Shown: piece after piece, positions 1-10,062 of the stretch
Layout: each line of letters opens with the position of its first letter
How positions within the stretch are numbered: the first letter of the stretch is position 1
Assembly (NCBI GenBank): GCA_000004985.1
Contig: GG739030.1
Source of the DNA: Naegleria gruberi
Taxonomy: Eukaryota
Reading direction: 5' to 3' (one strand)
DNA length: 10,062 nt
The notes under the pieces: generated by a model
Told to the model about the DNA's origin: nothing
Seen by the model: only the letters and a program-made list of their open reading frames with translations
Database searches by the model: none
Position numbers and translations under genes: made by a program

Positions 1-3
1 TAG

Positions 4-1452
4 TCTTTTGATTATATTATTAGTATAATCTTCGGTGTTTATATTTCATTTAAAATTATTCAACCATTCTATGAGTTGATTTTCAATTTTAGTGAAGTTT
101 CTGAAATGAAATTGGAAGGATTAGAATTTAGAAATTCATTGTTCAGAGAAATTGTCATTCTTCAAGGACACTTTAAGGGGATGGTTGACAGGATTAGGCT
201 TTACAGATGGTAAGTTATCACTAAGTTTCAACATGACTAAACAATTTTTGAAATAGCTTTATTCCAAGCCACTTGATTTCAAAGATTGATGGAGGTGAAG
301 AAGTTGATAAAAGTAGAAGATCAAAAGATTCCCAACCCCAATCTAAAAGTGCTTACTCTATTGGAAAACTAGTTAAGGAAGAAATTTCTAGCAGTTTTTC
401 AAGTATTGGAAGTACTACGAAAAAACAATCTCAAACTCAACAACCAATTGATATTTTAGCAAGATTTGCCCTTCATTTGGATAAAAGAAAAGTTGGTTTT
501 GCTTGCTTACATATTGAAGGAATGAGCGCATGTATTGCCAACAATTCTTACTCTGAAACTGTTACTGTTTTAAGTGAAATTTTCAAATATGTATATGATA
601 TGAGTAAGATACATGGAGGTTCTGTTGGTAATTTTGATAATGAGACTATCACTATTTCATTCAATTCTAATATTGACACAGCAGCCCCAGAAAAGAAATC
701 TATAACATTTGCTTATGCTATTGTTAGAAAGCTTAATGGTTTATTACCATTAAAGAAGGCCATTAATCCAGAAGCGACCGATAAGGCACAAACTTTTAGA
801 GTTGCAGTTCTCTCCCAAGCTGTTTGTTGTGGTAACTTGGGTACTAATGATTTTAAGAATTTTACAATTGTTGGTAGCTTCCAAAGAAATATACTTTCCA
901 TGTTGGATCTTGCTGTTAATTTGAACATTGAAATTGTAGTCTCTGAAGAAATTAAGGCAAAAACTCATAATTTCTATCAACACAGATTTATCGATACACT
1001 TAATTTCTTAACGGAACAACAATATGGAATTCCTGAGCTAGACAAGTCGCTTAACAAGAATTGGGCATTCTTAAAGTCACCAGAGTATGGTAACAACATT
1101 CCAGAAAGTTATACTCCTTTGTCCTCAAAGCAAATTACTGAAGTGAATGTTTATGAATTTGGAGATTTTATGGAAGTTAAAGAAGATGGTAAGTATATTT
1201 TAAAATTCACTCGAAATTAATCAAATATTAGAATGGATGTATGAATTGGAGGAAAAGAAGAAGAGAAATCTTTGGCAATCCTATGGAGCTGCTTGTAATT
1301 TATTCTTTGACAAGAAATATGAAGAAGCATGTGGATTGTTGAATGAATTCTTGGATAGAACAATTCAAAATGGAATGGCAGATTTACCAACCATCAATCT
1401 ATTAGAAAAGCTTAAGAAATTACAAGAAAGAGAAAAACTAGAGCAATTGTAA
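4..1452 (+). CDS. 5'-partial receptor-type class III nucleotidyl-cyclase homology-domain protein (probably catalytically divergent). Model: exon up to 209, intron 210-256, exon 257-1188, putative intron 1189-1231, exon 1232-1452 with TAA stop at 1450-1452.
   Basis: Frame 1 is open from nt 4 to 209 (...IISIIFGVYISFKIIQPFYELIFNF...MKLEGLEFRNSLFREIVILQGHFKGMVDRIRLYR) and stops at 211-213 just inside a GTAAGT donor (210-215). Frame 0 opens at 252, just before acceptor AAATAG (251-256). Splicing gives TG+C=Cys and continues FIPSHLISKIDGGEE..., matching the 273-1220 ORF. In my manual alignment, residues about 60-230 of that ORF (VGFACLHIEGMSA...GSVGNFDNETITISF...FRVAVLSQAVCCGNLGTNDFKNFTIVGSFQRNILSMLDLAVNLNIEIVVSEE) match the class III adenylyl/guanylyl cyclase catalytic-domain consensus (FxDIxGFT...TIGDAYM...RIGIHxGxVVAGVVG...PRYCLFGDTVNxASRMES...KIxVSE). 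Codon usage matches the other genes. Confidence 0.8.
210..256 (+). other. Spliceosomal intron, 47 nt (GTAAGT...AAATAG), joining the linker exon to the cyclase-domain exon.
   Basis: Canonical GTAAGT donor at 210-215. ACTAA-type branch candidates (tcACTAAg, tgACTAAa). Only frame-compatible AG is at 255-256. The upstream frame closes at 211 and the downstream frame opens at 252. Confidence 0.75.
1189..1231 (+). other. Putative 43-nt 3' intron of gene 1 (GTAAGT...ATATTAG). It would fuse the 273-1220 ORF in frame to the 1237-1452 ORF.
   Basis: GTAAGT sits at 1189-1194 in the same AGATGgtaagt context as the first intron donor (205-215). The only AG before nt 1237 is TAG at 1229-1231. Exon 2 ends in phase 1 (G at 1188) and exon 3 starts AA|TGG|ATG, giving ...MEVKED-E-W-MYELEEKKKRNLWQSYGAACNLFFDKKYEEACGLLNEFLDR...KLEQL* with no frame break. 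Without splicing, the protein ends KFTRN* at 1220. Confidence 0.55.
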
Positions 1453-1539: not shown

Positions 1540-3025
1540 ATGAGTAAACGAAGCATGCTCAAGATTTTGAAAAGCAATTTCGGATCAAAAAAAAGAAAAC
1601 GAAAAAGAAAAAACTTGTGCTCCAAGAAATATTTTCAGATGATGTTTGTTTTGAAATAATTTCCATGATTGATGATTCGTGGTTTATTTTGAATAATTGT
1701 TCTTTGATTTCAAAACAATTCTTTCATGTGATCAAGGAACGTTCAAAACTTGTTATTGAATTTAACAAAAAATTTACAGAGAAAAGAATTAAATTATTCA
1801 TGAAAAGTCAATTTATGAATAGTATTGTTAATGTTAAATTTTCGAGAAGGTTGCTTGACTCTATAGATGAAAATGGAATTGGTGATGAAGGAGCTAAATT
1901 CATAAGTGGAATGAAACAATTAATATCACTTACTATTGGTGAAAATGAAATTGGTGATGAAGGAGCCAAATTCATAAGTGAAATGAATCAATTAACATCA
2001 CTTGATATTAGTGGAAATCGAATTGGTGATGAAGGAGCCAAATTCATAAGTGAAATGAAACAATTAAAATCACTTGATATTGGTGGAAATCAAATTGGTG
2101 ATGAAGGAGCCAAATCAATTTGTGAAATGAAACAATTAACATCACTTACTGTTTCTTACAATCAAATTGGTGATGAAGGAGCCAAATTCATAAGTGAAAT
2201 GAATCAATTAAAATCACTTAATATTGGTGGAAATCAAATTGGTGATGAAGGAGCCAAGTCAATAAGTGGAATGAAACAATTAAAATCACTTAGTGTTTAT
2301 AACAATCGAATTGGTGATGAAGGAGCCAAATTCATAAGTGGAATGAATCAATTAACATCACTTGATATTGGTGAAAATCTAATTGGTGTAGAAGGAGCCA
2401 AATCAATAATTGAAATGAAACAGTTAACATCACTTAGTATTTATAACAATCGAATTGGTGATGAAGGAGCTAAATTCATAAGAGGAATGAATCAATTAAC
2501 ATCACTTAGTGTTTTTTGCAATCAAATTGGTGATGAAGGAGCCAAATCAATAATTGAAATGAAACAATTGACATCACTTGATATTGGTGAAAATCAAATT
2601 GGTGATGAAGGAGCCAAATCAATAATTGAAATGAAACAATTGACATCACTTGATATTTATTTCAATCAAATTGGTGATGAAGGAGCCAAATCAATAAGTG
2701 AAATGAAACAGTTAACATCACTAAATATTGGTGAAAATGAAATTGGTGATGAAGGAGCCAAATCAATAAGTGAAATGAAACAATTGACATCACTTAATAT
2801 TGGTCAAAATGAAATTGGTAATGAAGGAGCTAAATTCATAAGTGGAATGAAACAATTAACATCACTTAGTGTTTATAGCAATCTAATTGGTGATGAAGGA
2901 GCCAAATCAATAAGTGAAATGAAACAATTGACATCACTTAATATTGGTGAAAATGAAATTGGTGATGAAGGAGCTAAATTCATAAGTGGAATGAAACAAT
3001 TAACATCACTTAGTGTTTATAACAA
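1540..3025 (+). CDS. F-box / leucine-rich-repeat protein (ribonuclease-inhibitor-like LRRs of 24 aa), 3' end lost in the assembly gap. The 5' end is uncertain: ATG 1540 plus a short intron is the proposed model, and the long ORF proper begins at 1617 in frame 0.
   Basis: The N-terminus FSDDVCFEIISMIDDSWFILNNCSLISKQFFHVI aligns to the F-box consensus (LPxEILxxIFSYLDxxDLLRLxxVCKxWRxL). From about 1869 onward there are 16 consecutive 24-aa units IGDEGAK[F/S]ISEMKQLTSL[D/N/S]IGENx, matching the LxxLxLxxNxIGDEGAxxL signature of RNI/NLRC3-type LRRs. The ORF is uninterrupted from 1617 to the first N at 3026. There is no in-frame ATG before the F-box (first is 1665, inside the F-box), so the start lies upstream. 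Confidence 0.85.
1869..3025 (+). repeat. Tandem array of at least 16 near-identical 72-bp units (coding 24-aa LRRs), truncated by the gap.
   Basis: Direct reading shows the motif attggtgatgaaggagc(c/t)aaat(t/c)(c)ataagtgaaatgaaacaatt(a/g)acatcactt... recurring every 72 nt with roughly 85-95% nucleotide identity. F/S variants (aaattc / aaatca) partly alternate. Confidence 0.9.
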
Positions 3026-6000
3026 NNNNNNNNNNNNNNNNNNNNNNNNNNNNNNNNNNNNNNNNNNNNNNNNNNNNNNNNNNNNNNNNNNNNNNNNNNN
3101 NNNNNNNNNNNNNNNNNNNNNNNNNNNNNNNNNNNNNNNNNNNNNNNNNNNNNNNNNNNNNNNNNNNNNNNNNNNNNNNNNNNNNNNNNNNNNNNNNNNN
3201 NNNNNNNNNNNNNNNNNNNNNNNNNNNNNNNNNNNNNNNNNNNNNNNNNNNNNNNNNNNNNNNNNNNNNNNNNNNNNNNNNNNNNNNNNNNNNNNNNNNN
3301 NNNNNNNNNNNNNNNNNNNNNNNNNNNNNNNNNNNNNNNNNNNNNNNNNNNNNNNNNNNNNNNNNNNNNNNNNNNNNNNNNNNNNNNNNNNNNNNNNNNN
3401 NNNNNNNNNNNNNNNNNNNNNNNNNNNNNNNNNNNNNNNNNNNNNNNNNNNNNNNNNNNNNNNNNNNNNNNNNNNNNNNNNNNNNNNNNNNNNNNNNNNN
3501 NNNNNNNNNNNNNNNNNNNNNNNNNNNNNNNNNNNNNNNNNNNNNNNNNNNNNNNNNNNNNNNNNNNNNNNNNNNNNNNNNNNNNNNNNNNNNNNNNNNN
3601 NNNNNNNNNNNNNNNNNNNNNNNNNNNNNNNNNNNNNNNNNNNNNNNNNNNNNNNNNNNNNNNNNNNNNNNNNNNNNNNNNNNNNNNNNNNNNNNNNNNN
3701 NNNNNNNNNNNNNNNNNNNNNNNNNNNNNNNNNNNNNNNNNNNNNNNNNNNNNNNNNNNNNNNNNNNNNNNNNNNNNNNNNNNNNNNNNNNNNNNNNNNN
3801 NNNNNNNNNNNNNNNNNNNNNNNNNNNNNNNNNNNNNNNNNNNNNNNNNNNNNNNNNNNNNNNNNNNNNNNNNNNNNNNNNNNNNNNNNNNNNNNNNNNN
3901 NNNNNNNNNNNNNNNNNNNNNNNNNNNNNNNNNNNNNNNNNNNNNNNNNNNNNNNNNNNNNNNNNNNNNNNNNNNNNNNNNNNNNNNNNNNNNNNNNNNN
4001 NNNNNNNNNNNNNNNNNNNNNNNNNNNNNNNNNNNNNNNNNNNNNNNNNNNNNNNNNNNNNNNNNNNNNNNNNNNNNNNNNNNNNNNNNNNNNNNNNNNN
4101 NNNNNNNNNNNNNNNNNNNNNNNNNNNNNNNNNNNNNNNNNNNNNNNNNNNNNNNNNNNNNNNNNNNNNNNNNNNNNNNNNNNNNNNNNNNNNNNNNNNN
4201 NNNNNNNNNNNNNNNNNNNNNNNNNNNNNNNNNNNNNNNNNNNNNNNNNNNNNNNNNNNNNNNNNNNNNNNNNNNNNNNNNNNNNNNNNNNNNNNNNNNN
4301 NNNNNNNNNNNNNNNNNNNNNNNNNNNNNNNNNNNNNNNNNNNNNNNNNNNNNNNNNNNNNNNNNNNNNNNNNNNNNNNNNNNNNNNNNNNNNNNNNNNN
4401 NNNNNNNNNNNNNNNNNNNNNNNNNNNNNNNNNNNNNNNNNNNNNNNNNNNNNNNNNNNNNNNNNNNNNNNNNNNNNNNNNNNNNNNNNNNNNNNNNNNN
4501 NNNNNNNNNNNNNNNNNNNNNNNNNNNNNNNNNNNNNNNNNNNNNNNNNNNNNNNNNNNNNNNNNNNNNNNNNNNNNNNNNNNNNNNNNNNNNNNNNNNN
4601 NNNNNNNNNNNNNNNNNNNNNNNNNNNNNNNNNNNNNNNNNNNNNNNNNNNNNNNNNNNNNNNNNNNNNNNNNNNNNNNNNNNNNNNNNNNNNNNNNNNN
4701 NNNNNNNNNNNNNNNNNNNNNNNNNNNNNNNNNNNNNNNNNNNNNNNNNNNNNNNNNNNNNNNNNNNNNNNNNNNNNNNNNNNNNNNNNNNNNNNNNNNN
4801 NNNNNNNNNNNNNNNNNNNNNNNNNNNNNNNNNNNNNNNNNNNNNNNNNNNNNNNNNNNNNNNNNNNNNNNNNNNNNNNNNNNNNNNNNNNNNNNNNNNN
4901 NNNNNNNNNNNNNNNNNNNNNNNNNNNNNNNNNNNNNNNNNNNNNNNNNNNNNNNNNNNNNNNNNNNNNNNNNNNNNNNNNNNNNNNNNNNNNNNNNNNN
5001 NNNNNNNNNNNNNNNNNNNNNNNNNNNNNNNNNNNNNNNNNNNNNNNNNNNNNNNNNNNNNNNNNNNNNNNNNNNNNNNNNNNNNNNNNNNNNNNNNNNN
5101 NNNNNNNNNNNNNNNNNNNNNNNNNNNNNNNNNNNNNNNNNNNNNNNNNNNNNNNNNNNNNNNNNNNNNNNNNNNNNNNNNNNNNNNNNNNNNNNNNNNN
5201 NNNNNNNNNNNNNNNNNNNNNNNNNNNNNNNNNNNNNNNNNNNNNNNNNNNNNNNNNNNNNNNNNNNNNNNNNNNNNNNNNNNNNNNNNNNNNNNNNNNN
5301 NNNNNNNNNNNNNNNNNNNNNNNNNNNNNNNNNNNNNNNNNNNNNNNNNNNNNNNNNNNNNNNNNNNNNNNNNNNNNNNNNNNNNNNNNNNNNNNNNNNN
5401 NNNNNNNNNNNNNNNNNNNNNNNNNNNNNNNNNNNNNNNNNNNNNNNNNNNNNNNNNNNNNNNNNNNNNNNNNNNNNNNNNNNNNNNNNNNNNNNNNNNN
5501 NNNNNNNNNNNNNNNNNNNNNNNNNNNNNNNNNNNNNNNNNNNNNNNNNNNNNNNNNNNNNNNNNNNNNNNNNNNNNNNNNNNNNNNNNNNNNNNNNNNN
5601 NNNNNNNNNNNNNNNNNNNNNNNNNNNNNNNNNNNNNNNNNNNNNNNNNNNNNNNNNNNNNNNNNNNNNNNNNNNNNNNNNNNNNNNNNNNNNNNNNNNN
5701 NNNNNNNNNNNNNNNNNNNNNNNNNNNNNNNNNNNNNNNNNNNNNNNNNNNNNNNNNNNNNNNNNNNNNNNNNNNNNNNNNNNNNNNNNNNNNNNNNNNN
5801 NNNNNNNNNNNNNNNNNNNNNNNNNNNNNNNNNNNNNNNNNNNNNNNNNNNNNNNNNNNNNNNNNNNNNNNNNNNNNNNNNNNNNNNNNNNNNNNNNNNN
5901 NNNNNNNNNNNNNNNNNNNNNNNNNNNNNNNNNNNNNNNNNNNNNNNNNNNNNNNNNNNNNNNNNNNNNNNNNNNNNNNNNNNNNNNNNNNNNNNNNNNN

Positions 6001-7203
6001 NNNNNNNNNNNNNNNNNNNNNNNNNNNNNNNNNNNNNNNNNNNNNNNNNNNNNNNNNNNNNNNNNNNNNNNNNNNNNNNNNNNNNNNNNNNNNNNNNNNN
6101 NNNNNNNNNNNNNNNNNNNNNNNNNNNNNNNNNNNNNNNNNNNNNNNNNNNNNNNNNNNNNNNNNNNNNNNNNNNNNNNNNNNNNNNNNNNNNNNNNNNN
6201 NNNNNNNNNNNNNNNNNNNNNNNNNNNNNNNNNNNNNNNNNNNNNNNNNNNNNNNNNNNNNNNNNNNNNNNNNNNNNNNNNNNNNNNNNNNNNNNNNNNN
6301 NNNNNNNNNNNNNNNNNNNNNNNNNNNNNNNNNNNNNNNNNNNNNNNNNNNNNNNNNNNNNNNNNNNNNNNNNNNNNNNNNNNNNNNNNNNNNNNNNNNN
6401 NNNNNNNNNNNNNNNNNNNNNNNNNNNNNNNNNNNNNNNNNNNNNNNNNNNNNNNNNNNNNNNNNNNNNNNNNNNNNNNNNNNNNNNNNNNNNNNNNNNN
6501 NNNNNNNNNNNNNNNNNNNNNNNNNNNNNNNNNNNNNNNNNNNNNNNNNNNNNNNNNNNNNNNNNNNNNNNNNNNNNNNNNNNNNNNNNNNNNNNNNNNN
6601 NNNNNNNNNNNNNNNNNNNNNNNNNNNNNNNNNNNNNNNNNNNNNNNNNNNNNNNNNNNNNNNNNNNNNNNNNNNNNNNNNNNNNNNNNNNNNNNNNNNN
6701 NNNNNNNNNNNNNNNNNNNNNNNNNNNNNNNNNNNNNNNNNNNNNNNNNNNNNNNNNNNNNNNNNNNNNNNNNNNNNNNNNNNNNNNNNNNNNNNNNNNN
6801 NNNNNNNNNNNNNNNNNNNNNNNNNNNNNNNNNNNNNNNNNNNNNNNNNNNNNNNNNNNNNNNNNNNNNNNNNNNNNNNNNNNNNNNNNNNNNNNNNNNN
6901 NNNNNNNNNNNNNNNNNNNNNNNNNNNNNNNNNNNNNNNNNNNNNNNNNNNNNNNNNNNNNNNNNNNNNNNNNNNNNNNNNNNNNNNNNNNNNNNNNNNN
7001 NNNNNNNNNNNNNNNNNNNNNNNNNNNNNNNNNNNNNNNNNNNNNNNNNNNNNNNNNNNNNNNNNNNNNNNNNNNNNNNNNNNNNNNNNNNNNNNNNNNN
7101 NNNNNNNNNNNNNNNNNNNNNNNNNNNNNNNNNNNNNNNNNNNNNNNNNNNNNNNNNNNNNNNNNNNNNNNNNNNNNNNNNNNNNNNNNNNNNNNNNNNN
7201 NNN
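3026..7203. other. Assembly gap (4,178 N).
   Basis: Uninterrupted run of n characters immediately after the high-identity 72-bp tandem array. Consistent with repeat collapse or scaffolding. Confidence 0.99.
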
Positions 7204-7680: not shown

Positions 7681-8799
7681 ATGAAGTATGAAAATTTGGG
7701 TAACACTGGCATGAAAGTCTCCAAAATCTGTCTCGGATGCATGAGTTTCGGCTCACCAAAATGGTTTGATTGGGTTTTGGAAGAACCAGAATCAATGATC
7801 ATTCTCAAGAAGGCCTGGGAGTTGGGTATTAACTTCTTCGACACTGCCAACCTTTATTCGAATGGTGAAAGTGAGAGAATTTTGGGTAAATTCATTAGGG
7901 AGAATAACATTCCGAGAGAGGAAGTTGTTATTGCTACTAAGGTTTTTGGTCCGGTTGACAAGAGTGGAGAACAAAGGTACCTACCGTTGAGTGATGATAA
8001 GAAGGTGAATACTCATGGATTGTCGAGAAAGCATATTATGCATGCTGTTGAGGAATCATTGGAAAGATTGGGAACAGATTGTAAGTATTGTTGAAAATTG
8101 CAAAGTTCAGTTGACTGAATATTGTAAACAGACATTGATTTATATATTATTCATCGTTGGGATCCAGACACTCCTATTGAAGAAACCATGGAAACTTTAC
8201 ATGATTTGGTAAAATCTGGAAAGGTCAGATATATTGGTGCCTCTTTAATGTTTGCTTGGCAATTTGCTAAAGCTCAACATTATGCTGATAAGAAGGGATT
8301 GACCAAGTTTGTTTCCATGCAAAATCTCTATCATTTACTGTATAGAGAAGAGGAAAGAGACATGATTCCAATGTGTTTGGATCAGGGAGTTTCCTTAACT
8401 CCATATAGTCCACTTGCTAAGGGAATTTTGGCAAGAGCTCACGAATTTGTCAACTCTGAGAAAACAAGCAATGATGAGGATGAGGATGAGAAATCCAAGA
8501 GAGCAAATTCAGATTTCATTCAAAAACAATTCCAAGAAACCATAACTGAAGGTGATAAGGAAAATTTGAGAAGAGTTTCAGAATTGGCTAATAAGAAGAA
8601 TGTCTCACCAGCTCAAATTGCTATTGCTTGGCTATTGAAGAAGCCAGGAGTTACCAGTCCAATTGTTGGTGCCACAAAAGTATCGAATATTGAATCGTCT
8701 ATTGCTGCTTTGGATATTGAACTCACCACTGAGGAAGTCAAATATTTGGATGAATCCTACACAGCCAAAGCACCTCATCCAGTTGGTGTTAGAAAGTAA
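7681..8799 (+). CDS. Aldo-keto reductase (aryl-alcohol dehydrogenase / K+ channel beta-subunit-like subfamily). Complete: join(7681..8080, 8132..8799), 355 aa.
   Basis: N-terminus MKYENLGNTGMKVSKICLGCMSFG fits the LGxSGLxVSxLxLGxMxFG start of the AKR family. Catalytic tetrad candidates are Asp (FFDTANLYSNGESE), Tyr (NLYSNG), Lys (VIATKVFG) and His (IIHRWD). Splicing 8080|8132 gives ...[45 protein letters not shown], matching the conserved AKR block LGxDYIDLYxxHxxDxxTPxEET...AL..L...GK.RYIG.S. ATG at 7681 with A at -3. TAA stop at 8797-8799. Confidence 0.93.
8081..8131 (+). other. Spliceosomal intron, 51 nt, phase 1 (GTAAGT...AACAG), within the AKR gene.
   Basis: GTAAGT at 8081-8086. Branch-like ttgaCTGAAt. 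AG at 8130-8131. T(8080)+AC(8132-8133) gives TAC=Tyr, restoring the conserved DYIDLY motif. The unspliced frame hits a stop after GTDCKYC. Confidence 0.85.
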
Positions 8800-9067: not shown

Positions 9068-9185
9068 GGCTACGGCCATATCACGATGAATGCACCTCAT
9101 CCCGTCCGATTTGAGAAGTTAAGCATCGTCGAGCCACATCAGTACTGAGGTTGGAGACAACTTGGGAACCTGTGGTGCTGTAGTC
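9068..9185 (+). rRNA. 5S ribosomal RNA gene (118 nt).
   Basis: GGCTACGGCCATATCACGATGAATGCACCTCATCCCGTCCGATTTGAGAAGTTAAGCATCGTCGAGCCACATCAGTACTGAGGTTGGAGACAACTTGGGAACCTGTGGTGCTGTAGTC aligns along its length to eukaryotic 5S (GCCTACGGCCATACC...CCCGTCCGATC...GAAGTTAAGC...GTTAGTACT...GGGAGAC...TGGGAA.ACC.GGTGCTGTAGGC). The 5' GGCTACGGC pairs with the 3' GCTGTAGTC (9 bp helix I including 2 G-U). An internal box A-like GAAGTTAAGC is present. Confidence 0.92.
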
Positions 9186-9192
9186 TTTTTTT
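9186..9192 (+). terminator. RNA polymerase III terminator (T7 run) immediately 3' of the 5S gene.
   Basis: ttttttt directly after the 5S 3' end. Pol III terminates at runs of at least 4-5 T (established). Confidence 0.8.
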
Positions 9193-9278: not shown

Positions 9279-10062
9279 TTATTGTTGAATATTCTCATTG
9301 TAAACTAACCGCCTCCTTTCTTCCTCCTCATCATTAATAGTTTGCTGCTGAGAAACTTTGGCCTTTCCAAATCTATTAATGAAAATTCTTTGATACCATT
9401 TCATTTTCCTCACTGGAAAAACTTGTTGCAACAAAATTGCCATCAACAATGAAGGAATCATTAAAATGGAAACTAAAACTGAACCAAAAAAAATTAATAA
9501 CCAAGTTGGGATGGAATCTGTTGCATGTGTTGCGTAATAATTGAGAATTTGATTGATTTCTTGTTTGGTTTGGGGTTCAGATAGTTTTGTAATGGTTGCA
9601 TTGATAATTTCTGAAACAATTGTGGAAAAGTCAATGTCATTTTGTTTGAGAGATGATTTGACAGTTTCAATAACTTGTTGATTAGTGAATTGTTGGGCCA
9701 TTTGATTAATGATTGGTTGGGAATACTGTAATGAGTTTTGGAATAATTGATTGAATGGAATATTATTGAGAAGTGTTGAAATATTTTGAGAGATTGCTGA
9801 CATGGCATTATTTGTTACTGCTGTGATTTGATTCTTGTTGAGTACGTCGATAATGGCTTGTGAAACTTGAAATCTAATATTTGTTGTTACATTGTTTACA
9901 ACATTTTCAATTGCTTGTTCCAATTTTTTGAAGAGTTTTTCGAAAATATTCGAATCAGCTAGAGAAGGAAGGGAAAACCTTTCGTCCACAGATCTTCCAC
10001 TGCCGGTGTGATGAGGATTATGATTAGGAAGGTGATTGTTAGGCTCGGAGAGTGCGGTTTTA
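9279..10062 (-). CDS. Hypothetical Q/N-rich membrane protein with a single C-proximal transmembrane helix. N-terminus lies beyond the window end.
   Basis: Minus-strand frame open from the window edge (10061) to TAA at 9281-9279, at least 260 codons. In-window translation: ...KTALSEPNNHLPNHNPHHTGSGRSVDERFSLPSLADS...PTWLLIFFGSVLVSILMIPSLLMAILLQQVFPVRKMKWYQRIF...EEEERRRLVYNENIQQ*. A 25-residue hydrophobic stretch is followed by a basic stop-transfer sequence (RKMKWYQR). Codon usage (caa, aat, att, ttg) matches the other genes. An open frame this long is unlikely by chance in 67% AT DNA. Confidence 0.65.
   Translation of the reverse strand, partial: KTALSEPNNHLPNHNPHHTGSGRSVDERFSLPSLADSNIFEKLFKKLEQAIENVVNNVTTNIRFQVSQAIIDVLNKNQITAVTNNAMSAISQNISTLLNNIPFNQLFQNSLQYSQPIINQMAQQFTNQQVIETVKSSLKQNDIDFSTIVSEIINATITKLSEPQTKQEINQILNYYATHATDSIPTWLLIFFGSVLVSILMIPSLLMAILLQQVFPVRKMKWYQRIFINRFGKAKVSQQQTINDEEEERRRLVYNENIQQ

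What the first reader, a model, noticed from the sequence alone, without database searches (positions are those of the whole stretch)
273..1220. Cyclase-homology domain with substituted catalytic positions, flanked by a hydrophobic helix/linker exon and a TPR-like C-terminal exon (candidate pseudo-cyclase sensor)
My manual alignment to the class III nucleotidyl-cyclase consensus places the domain at about residues 60-230 of the ORF. Several catalytic positions appear substituted.

- **First metal-binding Asp.** LHIEGMSA sits where FxDIxGFT is expected.
- **Transition-state Asn/Arg block.** FGDTVNxASRMES reads VGSFQRNILSMLD.

Structural glycines and hydrophobics are kept (AVCCGNLG vs VVAGVVG, IEIVVSEE vs KIHVSE), and an Asp is retained in GNFDNETITISF (cf. 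TIGDAYM). That pattern is typical of pseudo-cyclase, regulatory or heterodimerising domains rather than an autonomous enzyme.

The upstream exon encodes a strongly hydrophobic segment (IISIIFGVYISFKII) followed by a helical linker. This resembles the signalling helix that precedes receptor-type cyclase domains. The probable last exon adds a TPR-like helix pair (LWQSYGAACNLFFDKKYEEACGLLNEFLD).
Basis: partly seen in the sequence, partly recalled or inferred. Interest (0 to 1): 0.55.

Follow-up and report, generated by a model that had tools for sequence, protein, structure and literature searches.

The report
Catalytically degenerate Naegleria receptor-type cyclase paralogue
The window holds the 3' two-thirds of an unannotated Naegleria gruberi gene for a membrane receptor whose intracellular "cyclase" domain has the right fold but lacks residues needed to make cAMP or cGMP; it is one more member of a large Naegleria family with the same defect, which is interesting but not surprising.

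Summary
The window is a complete 10,062-bp Naegleria gruberi scaffold. Its left end carries three exons (4-209, 257-1188, 1232-1452) of a gene cut off at the scaffold edge.

The spliced 452-aa product reads: end of a TM helix, HAMP-like domain, Ser-rich linker, class III cyclase-homology domain (CHD), DEWMYEL motif, one TPR-like hairpin.

The single sequence gets no Pfam hit. Other evidence settles the fold:
- Family profiles hit solved cyclases (CyaB, E=2.7e-15).
- hhalign to canonical cyclases gives 98% probability.

In register, metal Asp1 is His, metal Asp2 is Glu, the substrate Lys is Asn and the transition-state Arg is Met. The substrate Thr, the beta4 Arg and probably the Asn are kept.

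None of 42 close relatives has Asp1, the Lys or the Arg. They include proteins of N. gruberi, N. fowleri and N. lovaniensis, some auto-named "adenylate/guanylate cyclase".

The window protein keeps 85% of clade-consensus residues, so it is not decaying.

Best reading: a non-catalytic pseudo-cyclase receptor. Both half-sites are defective, so C1/C2-type complementation is unlikely. It is a new member of a known kind, of moderate interest.

The parts
1..3 (+). In-frame TAG at the very edge of the scaffold. It is either the last bases of an upstream intron (…TAG|exon) or a real stop. The 5' part of the gene (sensor ectodomain, first TM) is not on this scaffold.
   Evidence: Sequence. Relatives carry about 340 more N-terminal residues. 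The window is a whole 10,062-bp scaffold.
4..209 (+). Exon A. It encodes the C-terminal part of a TM helix (SFDYIISIIFGVYISF, about 4-51) and a HAMP-like domain (about 49-209, KIIQPFYEL…REIVILQGHFKGMVDRIRLYR).
   Evidence: Splice and frame check. A profile of this region from 30 relatives aligns over 54 residues with the NarQ HAMP (5iji 174-228) at E=0.007. Pfam HAMP is found in 1 of 63 relatives.
210..256 (+). Intron 1 (47 nt, GTAAGT…ATAG).
   Evidence: The junction restores the family-invariant LYRxFIPSHL.
257..1188 (+). In order it encodes the conserved FIPSHLISKID helix (258-290), a Ser/Lys/Gln-rich disordered linker (297-449) and the cyclase-homology domain (471-1169).
   Evidence: (pLDDT ~52-54 over the linker, above 90 in the domain core).
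471..1169 (+). Class III cyclase-homology domain (beta1 to beta8). It has a 41-residue low-confidence insertion between beta7 and beta8 (1011-1133), where canonical enzymes have the KGK loop.
510..521 (+). HIEG, equivalent to DIxG of canonical cyclases. His154 (CAT, 510-512) replaces metal-binding Asp1.
   Evidence: The same register is given by HMMER against CyaB, Cya2 and CyaC and by hhalign against two canonical cyclases.
630..644 (+). NFDNE, equivalent to KF(V/I)GD. Asn194 (630-632) replaces the substrate Lys. Glu198 (642-644) replaces metal Asp2. Asp196 sits at a position that is acidic in 39 of 42 clade members but hydrophobic in canonical enzymes.
798..800 (+). Arg250, the retained beta4 arginine. 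It lies 11 residues before the GNLG glycine, as in CyaB IRMGINTGYCTVGNFG.
   Evidence: alignment. R or K in 36 of 42 relatives.
831..902 (+). CGNLGTNDFKNFTIVGSFQRNILSM. GNxG is invariant. Thr272 (864-866) keeps the substrate-pocket Thr of class IIIb enzymes. Asn280 (888-890) is the probable transition-state Asn. Met284 (900-902) replaces the transition-state Arg.
1189..1231 (+). Intron 2 (43 nt, GTAAGT…TTAG). It splits the codon of Glu380 within the DEWMYEL motif.
   Evidence: The junction restores the family-invariant DEWMYEL.
1232..1452 (+). Exon C. It encodes the rest of DEWMYEL, one TPR-like helix hairpin (W394…F/L421, about 1273-1356), a helical tail, and the stop codon TAA at 1450-1452.
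   Evidence: The tail profile hits consensus TPR proteins and a designer PPR protein. Pfam TPR_2, TPR_1 and Fis1_TPR_C are found in a few relatives.

Best explanation
This is the 3' portion of an unannotated Naegleria gruberi paralogue of a genus-wide family of single-pass or bitopic receptor-like proteins. The family architecture is extracellular sensor, TM helix, HAMP, Ser-rich linker, class III cyclase-homology domain (CHD), then DEWMYEL plus one TPR-like hairpin.

The CHD keeps the cyclase fold and the dimer-type scaffold motifs (GNxG, K/R-x-F-T, beta4 Arg). It has lost the first metal Asp (His), the purine-binding Lys (Asn) and the transition-state Arg (Met).

**Inferred mechanism.** The domain does not make cAMP or cGMP. 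The protein most likely works as a pseudo-cyclase receptor:
- Ligand-induced HAMP rearrangement is passed to a CHD dimer.
- The CHD dimer serves as a conformational or ligand-binding module.
- Output is by protein-protein contacts, through the TPR-like tail and a possibly phosphorylated linker. Alternatively, the protein forms non-productive dimers with active cyclases.

**Shown:** gene structure, fold, residue register, family-wide loss of the catalytic residues, and absence of decay.

**Inferred:** lack of activity, dimerisation and the output mode.
For: - **Gene structure.** Three in-frame exons with canonical splice sites.
- **Organism.** The neighbouring AKR gene is identical to N. gruberi EFC35775.1, on a contig of 10,062 bp.
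- **CHD homology and fold.**
- **Residue register.** His154, Asn194, Glu198 and Met284 are consistent across four solved cyclases and two canonical sequences.
- **Family-wide loss.** In 42 close relatives the Asp1 column is Y/H/L/F/K and never D, the Lys column is never K, and the Arg column is L or M in 39 of 42 and never Arg. Only 3 of the 150 nearest representatives have Asp in the Asp1 column.
- **No sign of decay.** The window protein keeps 50 of 59 clade-consensus residues and ranks mid-field among 43.
- **Receptor architecture.** HAMP-like match to NarQ. NIT and PDC sensor domains in relatives. TPR-like tail.
- **Precedent.** An inactive class III cyclase-like ATP-binding protein exists in the PDB (6yii, listed).
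Against: - No activity, expression or binding data exist.
- Several pocket residues remain conserved: beta4 Arg250, Thr272 and Asn280. An acidic residue at 196 is present in 93% of clade members.
- His154, Glu156, Asp196 and Glu198 cluster at the former metal site in this subgroup. Nucleotide or metal binding, or even residual non-canonical catalysis, therefore cannot be excluded.
- The Asn assignment depends on a one-residue gap.
- The 5' end is missing and frame 1 is closed by TAG at bases 1-3, so an intact full-length gene is not demonstrated.
- The structural model is a monomer; dimerisation is assumed from the family.
Confidence: 0.6

Rival explanations
1. It is an active cyclase with a non-canonical active site. 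Glu156 and Asp196 (each shifted by two residues from the canonical Asp positions), Glu198 and His154 would rebuild a metal site. Asn194 and Thr272 would define an unusual substrate preference.
For: - Position 196 is acidic in 39 of 42 relatives, position 156 in 27 of 42, and position 198 in 29 of 42.
- Arg250, Thr272 and Asn280 are conserved.
- From my own knowledge, not tested here: mycobacterial cyclases with non-canonical substrate residues, such as Rv0386 and Rv1900c, are active.
Against: - No relative has the transition-state Arg; the column is always L, M, I or V.
- The Asp1 column is highly variable (Y, H, L, F, K), which argues against any metal role for it.
- The KGK phosphate loop is replaced by a 41-residue insertion.
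- From my own knowledge: no class III enzyme is known to work without the first metal Asp.
Confidence: 0.1
2. It is a heterodimer partner, like mammalian C1/C2 or sGC alpha/beta, that completes one active site together with a catalytically intact Naegleria cyclase.
For: - Naegleria encodes at least 81 cyclases, so partners are available (PMC9928731).
- The CHD scaffold and the dimer-arm motif GNLGxxxxKxFT are strongly conserved.
Against: - Complementation needs one subunit with both Asp residues and the other with Lys, Asp/Thr, Asn and Arg.
- This protein lacks Asp1 and also lacks Lys and Arg. Both composite sites with a canonical partner would be incomplete.
- A heterodimer would therefore be inhibitory at best, which merges into the pseudo-cyclase reading.
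- No complementary paralogue (Asp1-positive with Arg-negative, paired with the reverse) appears among the 150 nearest relatives.
Confidence: 0.12
3. It is a dead gene fragment or pseudogene on a small unplaced scaffold. It is truncated at the 5' end, unannotated, and possibly an assembly leftover or allelic scrap.
For: - In-frame TAG at bases 1-3.
- The gene has no protein in the collection.
- The scaffold is only 10 kb and carries a 4,178-nt gap.
- A near-invariant family His (40 of 42) is Pro213 here.
Against: - 452 codons are open across three exons with canonical GTAAGT…AG introns. The junctions restore family-invariant motifs.
- 85% of clade-consensus residues are kept, which is typical of annotated members.
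- TAG at 1-3 also reads as an intron acceptor.
Confidence: 0.12

Closest known systems
Naegleria receptor-like 'adenylate/guanylate cyclase' paralogues. Examples: N. gruberi P0001 and P0002 ('predicted protein'), EFC40623.1 ('adenylate/guanylate cyclase'), EFC37480.1; N. fowleri KAF0975674.1; N. lovaniensis KAG2382618.1 ('Guanylate cyclase domain-containing protein').
   Same: - Same architecture from the TM helix to the C-terminus: HAMP-like domain, LYRxFIPSHL, Ser-rich linker, degenerate CHD, DEWMYEL and a TPR-like hairpin.
- Full-length alignment at E=1e-67 to 1e-60.
- Same missing catalytic residues.
   Different: - At most 35% identical to any of them.
- Longer beta7-beta8 insertion.
- Glu rather than Asp at the Asp2 position.
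- Pro at the family His213.
- 5' sensor part unknown.
- Not annotated.
Canonical class IIIb homodimeric cyclases: P. aeruginosa CyaB (3r5g), Spirulina CyaC (1wc0/1wc1), Synechocystis Cya2 (2w01).
   Same: - Same GN(I/F)G…(R/K)x(Y/F)T motif.
- Thr at the substrate position, beta4 Arg and probably the Asn are shared.
   Different: - Asp1 is His.
- Asp2 is Glu.
- Lys is Asn.
- The transition-state Arg is Met.
- The KGK loop is replaced by an insertion.
- There is a 50-residue disordered insert between the N-terminal helix and beta1.
Known non-catalytic or half-degenerate CHDs: the P. aeruginosa class III adenylyl cyclase-like ATP-binding protein (PDB 6yii), and the degenerate second site of mammalian AC C1/C2 and of sGC alpha/beta.
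   Different: - Those are either soluble bacterial regulators or one half of an obligatory pseudo-heterodimer that still has one working site.
- Here both half-sites of a membrane receptor are defective.
- The defect is shared by a whole expanded eukaryotic clade.
HAMP-linked receptor cyclases of Euglenozoa and Heterolobosea (NCIII + HAMP + Cache/NIT subfamily described for Euglena gracilis and N. gruberi).
   Same: TM helix, HAMP, then a single CHD, with NIT or PDC/Cache-type ectodomains in relatives (PMC6366073).
   Different: That paper treats them as cyclases and does not examine catalytic residues. The clade here lacks them.

Membership tests
Class III nucleotidyl cyclase catalytic domain (CHD, Pfam PF00211) | The beta-alpha-alpha-beta-beta-alpha-beta palm-type fold of class III cyclases | tested here: met
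   [not shown]
Class III nucleotidyl cyclase catalytic domain (CHD, Pfam PF00211) | Significant sequence-profile match to the family | tested here: met
   The family profile hits CyaB at E=2.7e-15, plus 25 other cyclase chains. hhalign gives 98% probability. PF00211 matches 18 of 63 relatives at E<=0.01. The window sequence alone gets no PF00211 hit at E<=10.
Class III nucleotidyl cyclase catalytic domain (CHD, Pfam PF00211) | Two metal-binding aspartates (FxDIxGFT and KxxGD) | tested here: not met
   His154 and Glu198 occupy these positions in every alignment. Asp1 is absent in all 42 close relatives.
Class III nucleotidyl cyclase catalytic domain (CHD, Pfam PF00211) | Substrate-defining pair (Lys or Glu, plus Asp, Thr or Cys) | tested here: not met
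   The Lys position is Asn194. The Thr position is kept (Thr272)..
Class III nucleotidyl cyclase catalytic domain (CHD, Pfam PF00211) | Transition-state Asn and Arg (VNxASR) | tested here: not met
   The Arg position is Met284 by HMMER or Ser283 by ungapped hhalign. Asn280 is retained only if the one-residue gap is accepted. The Arg column is L, M, I or V in all 150 nearest relatives.
Class III nucleotidyl cyclase catalytic domain (CHD, Pfam PF00211) | Cyclase activity | not testable with these tools
   Needs an enzyme assay.
Naegleria HAMP-CHD-DEWMYEL/TPR receptor-like clade (unnamed) | Collinear full-length similarity and the clade motifs LYRxFIPSHL, FEN(D/E), CGNxG(T/S)xxxKxF(T/S), DEWMYEL and W..YN.A | tested here: met
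   E=8e-67 to P0001 over 91% of the query. 50 of 59 consensus positions are kept.
HAMP domain (PF00672) | About 50 residues directly after a TM helix: helix 1 with the conserved Pro, a connector, and helix 2 with E…F-x-x-M | tested here: inconclusive
   The family profile aligns over the whole NarQ HAMP (5iji 174-228), but only at E=0.007. Pfam HAMP hits 1 of 63 relatives at E=0.0029 and does not hit the window protein.
Tetratricopeptide repeat (TPR) | A 34-residue helix-turn-helix with the W/L-G-Y-A-F-A pattern, usually in tandem | tested here: inconclusive
   One unit only. The profile matches each repeat of consensus TPR proteins weakly (per-repeat E about 8; the summed 1.8e-8 is inflated by repetition). 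TPR_2 hits 3 of 63 relatives. The window protein gets no Pfam hit.

The most novel reading that the evidence does not exclude
The Naegleria clade is not simply dead. It has moved its carboxylates: position 196 is acidic in 93% of members, position 156 in 64%, and this subgroup also has His154 and Glu198. It keeps the beta4 Arg, the pocket Thr and the Asn. The CHD dimer would then bind a metal-nucleotide (ATP, GTP or a cyclic nucleotide) as a sensor, or catalyse a non-canonical reaction. A sizeable share of the roughly 80-100 'cyclases' counted in Naegleria genomes would in that case be nucleotide-sensing receptors rather than cAMP/cGMP producers.
Probability: 0.15. Interest if true: 0.6.

Novelty: new member of a known kind. 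Interest (0 to 1): 0.35.

Why it matters
- **Cyclase counts in Naegleria may be too high.** Published counts (at least 81; PMC9928731) and database names such as 'adenylate/guanylate cyclase' or 'Guanylate cyclase domain-containing protein' include proteins of this clade. All of them lack the first metal Asp, the substrate Lys and the transition-state Arg. cAMP/cGMP signalling capacity inferred from domain counts is therefore probably overestimated.
- **An untested group of receptors.** A whole group of receptor-like pseudo-cyclases, present also in the pathogen N. fowleri, awaits a functional assignment.
- **A missing gene model.** For this locus, the practical result is a new partial gene model missing from the N. 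gruberi annotation.

Tried and rejected
- **Single-sequence searches.** Pfam and phmmer against PDB sequences found nothing. The domain is only detectable with family profiles.
- **First AlphaFold run.** With a 3-sequence alignment it failed (pLDDT 36) and was discarded. The 63-sequence run was used instead.
- **Word-indexed homologue searches.**
  - The first search found the two founding homologues, P0001 and P0002.
  - The repeat with profile A2 returned only those same two.
  - The search with A4 returned P0081 plus the two canonical cyclases P0157 and P0158, which were then used for hhalign.
  - The exhaustive representative search was needed to see the family.
- **Recovering the 5' end or paralogue loci.** The look-up of encoding contigs found nothing for ORF 7681-8091, P0154 or P0001. 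The N. gruberi assembly is not in that index, so the upstream exons, intron conservation and gene neighbourhood of paralogues could not be examined.
- **AFDB fold search.** The library was unavailable.
- **Literature.** Searches for a described Naegleria pseudo-cyclase, or for 'cyclase-like ATP-binding protein', found nothing relevant.
- **C1/C2-type complementation.** Considered and rejected on residue logic.
Full report
**What the window is**

The sequence is AT-rich (about 30% G+C) with short GTAAGT…AG introns and a 4,178-nt run of N at 3026-7203.

The spliced aldo/keto reductase gene (7681-8080 plus 8132-8799) encodes a protein identical over all 355 residues to Naegleria gruberi EFC35775.1 / XP_002668519.1. 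The collection records that protein on a contig of exactly 10,062 bp. The window is therefore one entire small N. gruberi scaffold. The gene at its left end is cut by the scaffold edge. Its product is absent from the protein collection, so it is unannotated.

**Gene structure**

ORF 273-1220 is the middle exon of a three-exon gene.
- Exon A (4-209) ends …AGATG|GTAAGT.
- Exon B runs 257-1188, with acceptor …AAATAG| and donor …GATG|GTAAGT.
- Exon C runs 1232-1452, with acceptor …TATTAG| and stop codon TAA.
- The three exons join in frame to give 452 residues.
- Both junctions rebuild motifs that are invariant in the homologues: LYRxFIPSHL and DEWMYEL. This is independent support for the splicing.
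- Bases 1-3 are TAG in frame. This is equally consistent with the end of an upstream intron and with a stop. About 340 N-terminal residues present in relatives (ectodomain and first TM) are missing.

**Is it a cyclase-homology domain?**

The single sequence gives nothing against Pfam, even at E<=10, or against PDB sequences. Once homologues are used the evidence is clear.
- Two N. gruberi 'predicted proteins', P0001 and P0002, match at E=8e-67 and E=2e-63 and are 35% and 33% identical.
- P0001 has a faint PF00211 match at E=0.042.
- A profile of the three sequences hits the solved class III cyclase CyaB (3r5g) at E=5.9e-7, and also CyaC, Cya2 and AC9.
- An exhaustive search with this profile found 1,681 proteins at E<=1e-3, of which 59 are at E<=1e-30.
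- A 63-sequence profile raises the CyaB hit to E=2.7e-15 and adds photoactivated cyclases, mammalian AC5 C1, AC8, AC9 and RhoGC.
- hhalign against two canonical cyclases that carry PF00211 gives 98% (E=1.7e-13) and 97.6% (E=3e-12) probability.
- AlphaFold with the 63-sequence alignment gives pLDDT 80 and pTM 0.74, with the domain core above 90. The run with three sequences had failed.
- Foldseek against the PDB: the 50 best-listed matches are all class III cyclases, with CyaB at E=4.5e-11 and a target-normalised TM-score of 0.82.

The domain is real and spans about 471-1169.

**Catalytic register**

All alignments agree on the first half of the domain.

| Canonical position | Window residue | Codon |
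|---|---|---|
| Metal Asp1 (FxDIxGFT, here LHIEGMS) | His154 | CAT 510-512 |
| Substrate Lys (KF(V/I)GD, here NFDNE) | Asn194 | 630-632 |
| Metal Asp2 | Glu198 | 642-644 |
| beta4 Arg | Arg250 (kept) | 798-800 |
| Pocket Thr of class IIIb enzymes | Thr272 (kept) | 864-866 |
| Transition-state Asn | Asn280 (probably kept) | 888-890 |
| Transition-state Arg | Met284 | 900-902 |

- In the beta5-alpha4 segment the family has one extra residue. HMMER places a gap, so that Asn280 aligns with the transition-state Asn and Met284 with the Arg.
- hhalign leaves the segment ungapped, giving Arg279 for the Asn and Ser283 for the Arg. In either register the transition-state Arg is absent.
- I favour the gapped register, because Asn280 is N in 39 of 42 close relatives.
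- The canonical KGK loop between beta7 and beta8 is replaced by a 41-residue low-confidence insertion.

**The defect is a property of the whole clade**

Among the 42 relatives with E<1e-60:
- The Asp1 column is Y12, H10, L7, F5, K5 and never Asp.
- The Lys column is never Lys.
- The Arg column is L22/M17.
- Asp2 is D23, N7, E6, G5.

Among the 150 nearest representatives only three, all remote, have Asp in the Asp1 column. None has Arg in the transition-state column.

Named members include:
- N. gruberi EFC40623.1 'adenylate/guanylate cyclase', plus EFC46793.1, EFC43585.1, EFC47106.1, EFC46062.1 and EFC37480.1.
- N. fowleri KAF0975674.1.
- Three N. lovaniensis proteins that UniRef calls 'Guanylate cyclase domain-containing protein'.
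- A Pharyngomonas kirbyi transcript.
- Environmental contigs labelled 'class 3 adenylate cyclase'.

The family is thus already in the databases and is labelled as cyclase. I found no paper that notes the missing catalytic residues. The Euglena genome paper describes the TM-HAMP-NCIII architecture shared with N. gruberi (PMC6366073). The Naegleria pangenome paper counts 'at least 81 cyclases' (PMC9928731).

**Flanking modules**

*Exon A.* A profile of this region from 30 relatives aligns over 54 residues with the HAMP domain of NarQ (5iji 174-228). The Pro-x3-L, E-(V/L)-x-x-L and F-x-x-M positions match, but the E-value is only 0.007. Pfam HAMP hits one relative. I call this region HAMP-like.

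*Sensor domains in relatives.* These include NIT (3 members, E=1e-30) and MCP-like PDC (3 members). This fits a receptor.

*Linker.* Between the conserved FIPSHLISKID helix and beta1 lies a 51-residue Ser/Thr- and Lys/Arg/Gln-rich segment predicted to be disordered.

*Tail.* The tail profile (DEWMYEL…W..YN.A…F….Y.EA…F) matches consensus TPR proteins and a designer PPR protein. Each repeat matches weakly, and the small summed E-values are inflated by repetition. TPR_2, TPR_1 and Fis1_TPR_C hit a few relatives.

**Is the gene decaying?**

The window protein keeps 50 of 59 positions that are at least 70% conserved in the clade. It ranks in the middle of 43 members. Its departures include Pro213 for a His present in 40 of 42 relatives, and loss of a KW pair in the alpha3-beta4 loop. 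There are no stops or frameshifts in 452 codons. This argues against a pseudogene, although the missing 5' end leaves room for doubt.

**Mechanism**

*Shown:* a receptor-type architecture whose CHD lacks Asp1, Lys and the transition-state Arg.

*Inferred from established class III enzymology (two-metal catalysis; in a dimer the Asp residues come from one subunit and Lys, Asp/Thr, Asn and Arg from the other):*
- A homodimer cannot catalyse cyclisation.
- A heterodimer with a canonical cyclase would have two incomplete sites, so C1/C2-type complementation is unlikely. Any heterodimer would be inhibitory.
- I therefore favour a pseudo-cyclase receptor (confidence about 0.6). Its CHD dimer would act as a conformational or ligand-binding module. 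Its output would run through the TPR-like tail and linker, or through non-productive pairing with active cyclases.

*Rivals:*
- A relocated or non-canonical active site (0.10). This is prompted by the conserved acidic residue at 196, by Glu156, Glu198 and His154, and by the retained Arg250, Thr272 and Asn280.
- A complementing heterodimer partner (0.12).
- A pseudogene or assembly scrap (0.12).

The PDB already holds a precedent for an inactive class III cyclase-like ATP-binding protein (6yii).

**Verdict**

The gene is an unannotated, 5'-truncated paralogue of a known, database-annotated Naegleria family. That is a new member of a known kind. The clade-wide loss of catalytic residues is a useful but not startling point. 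Interest: 0.35.

Noticed in passing
window 9068-9186 (+): A complete 5S rRNA gene (Rfam RF00001, 105 bits, E=7e-23) followed by a T-run. It lies alone between protein-coding genes on this small scaffold.
   Followed up: partly
window 1540-3025 (+), continuing into the N gap 3026-7203: A large RNI-type leucine-rich-repeat gene. It has 15.9 tandem copies of a 72-bp (24-aa) unit, 'NxIGDEGAKxISEMKQLTSL', at 84% identity (LRR_6 E=2e-85). The repeat array runs straight into the 4,178-nt assembly gap, which probably exists because of it.
   Followed up: partly
window 1540-1660 (+): The only upstream ATG of the LRR gene (1540, MSKRSMLKILKSNFGSKKRKRKRK…) is in a different frame from the LRR ORF that opens at 1617. 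The shift falls in A-rich homopolymer runs. This suggests a homopolymer sequencing error, a real frameshift or a tiny intron.
   Followed up: no
window 7681-8799 (+), intron 8081-8131: An aldo/keto reductase gene (PF00248, E=3e-83) identical to N. gruberi EFC35775.1. A copy at least 90% identical (EFC38707.1) sits on a 290-kb scaffold, so this 10-kb scaffold may be a recent segmental duplicate or a divergent haplotype of that region.
   Followed up: partly
window 9279-9989 (-): A 236-aa ORF with a hydrophobic C-terminal segment, rich in Gln, Asn and Ile. It has no Pfam family and no exact entry in the protein collection. It may continue upstream beyond the ORF start.
   Followed up: no
relatives P0058-P0091 (environmental contigs, JGI 'class 3 adenylate cyclase' and 'ankyrin repeat protein/class 3 adenylate cyclase'): A more distant subgroup of about 700-1,200 aa carries a conserved (K/R)(L/F)PD(L/F/Y) motif where canonical cyclases have FxDIxGF. 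It shares the C-terminal TPR-like tail, which HMMER reports as a separate matched stretch in many of these proteins. Its organisms are unknown.
   Followed up: no
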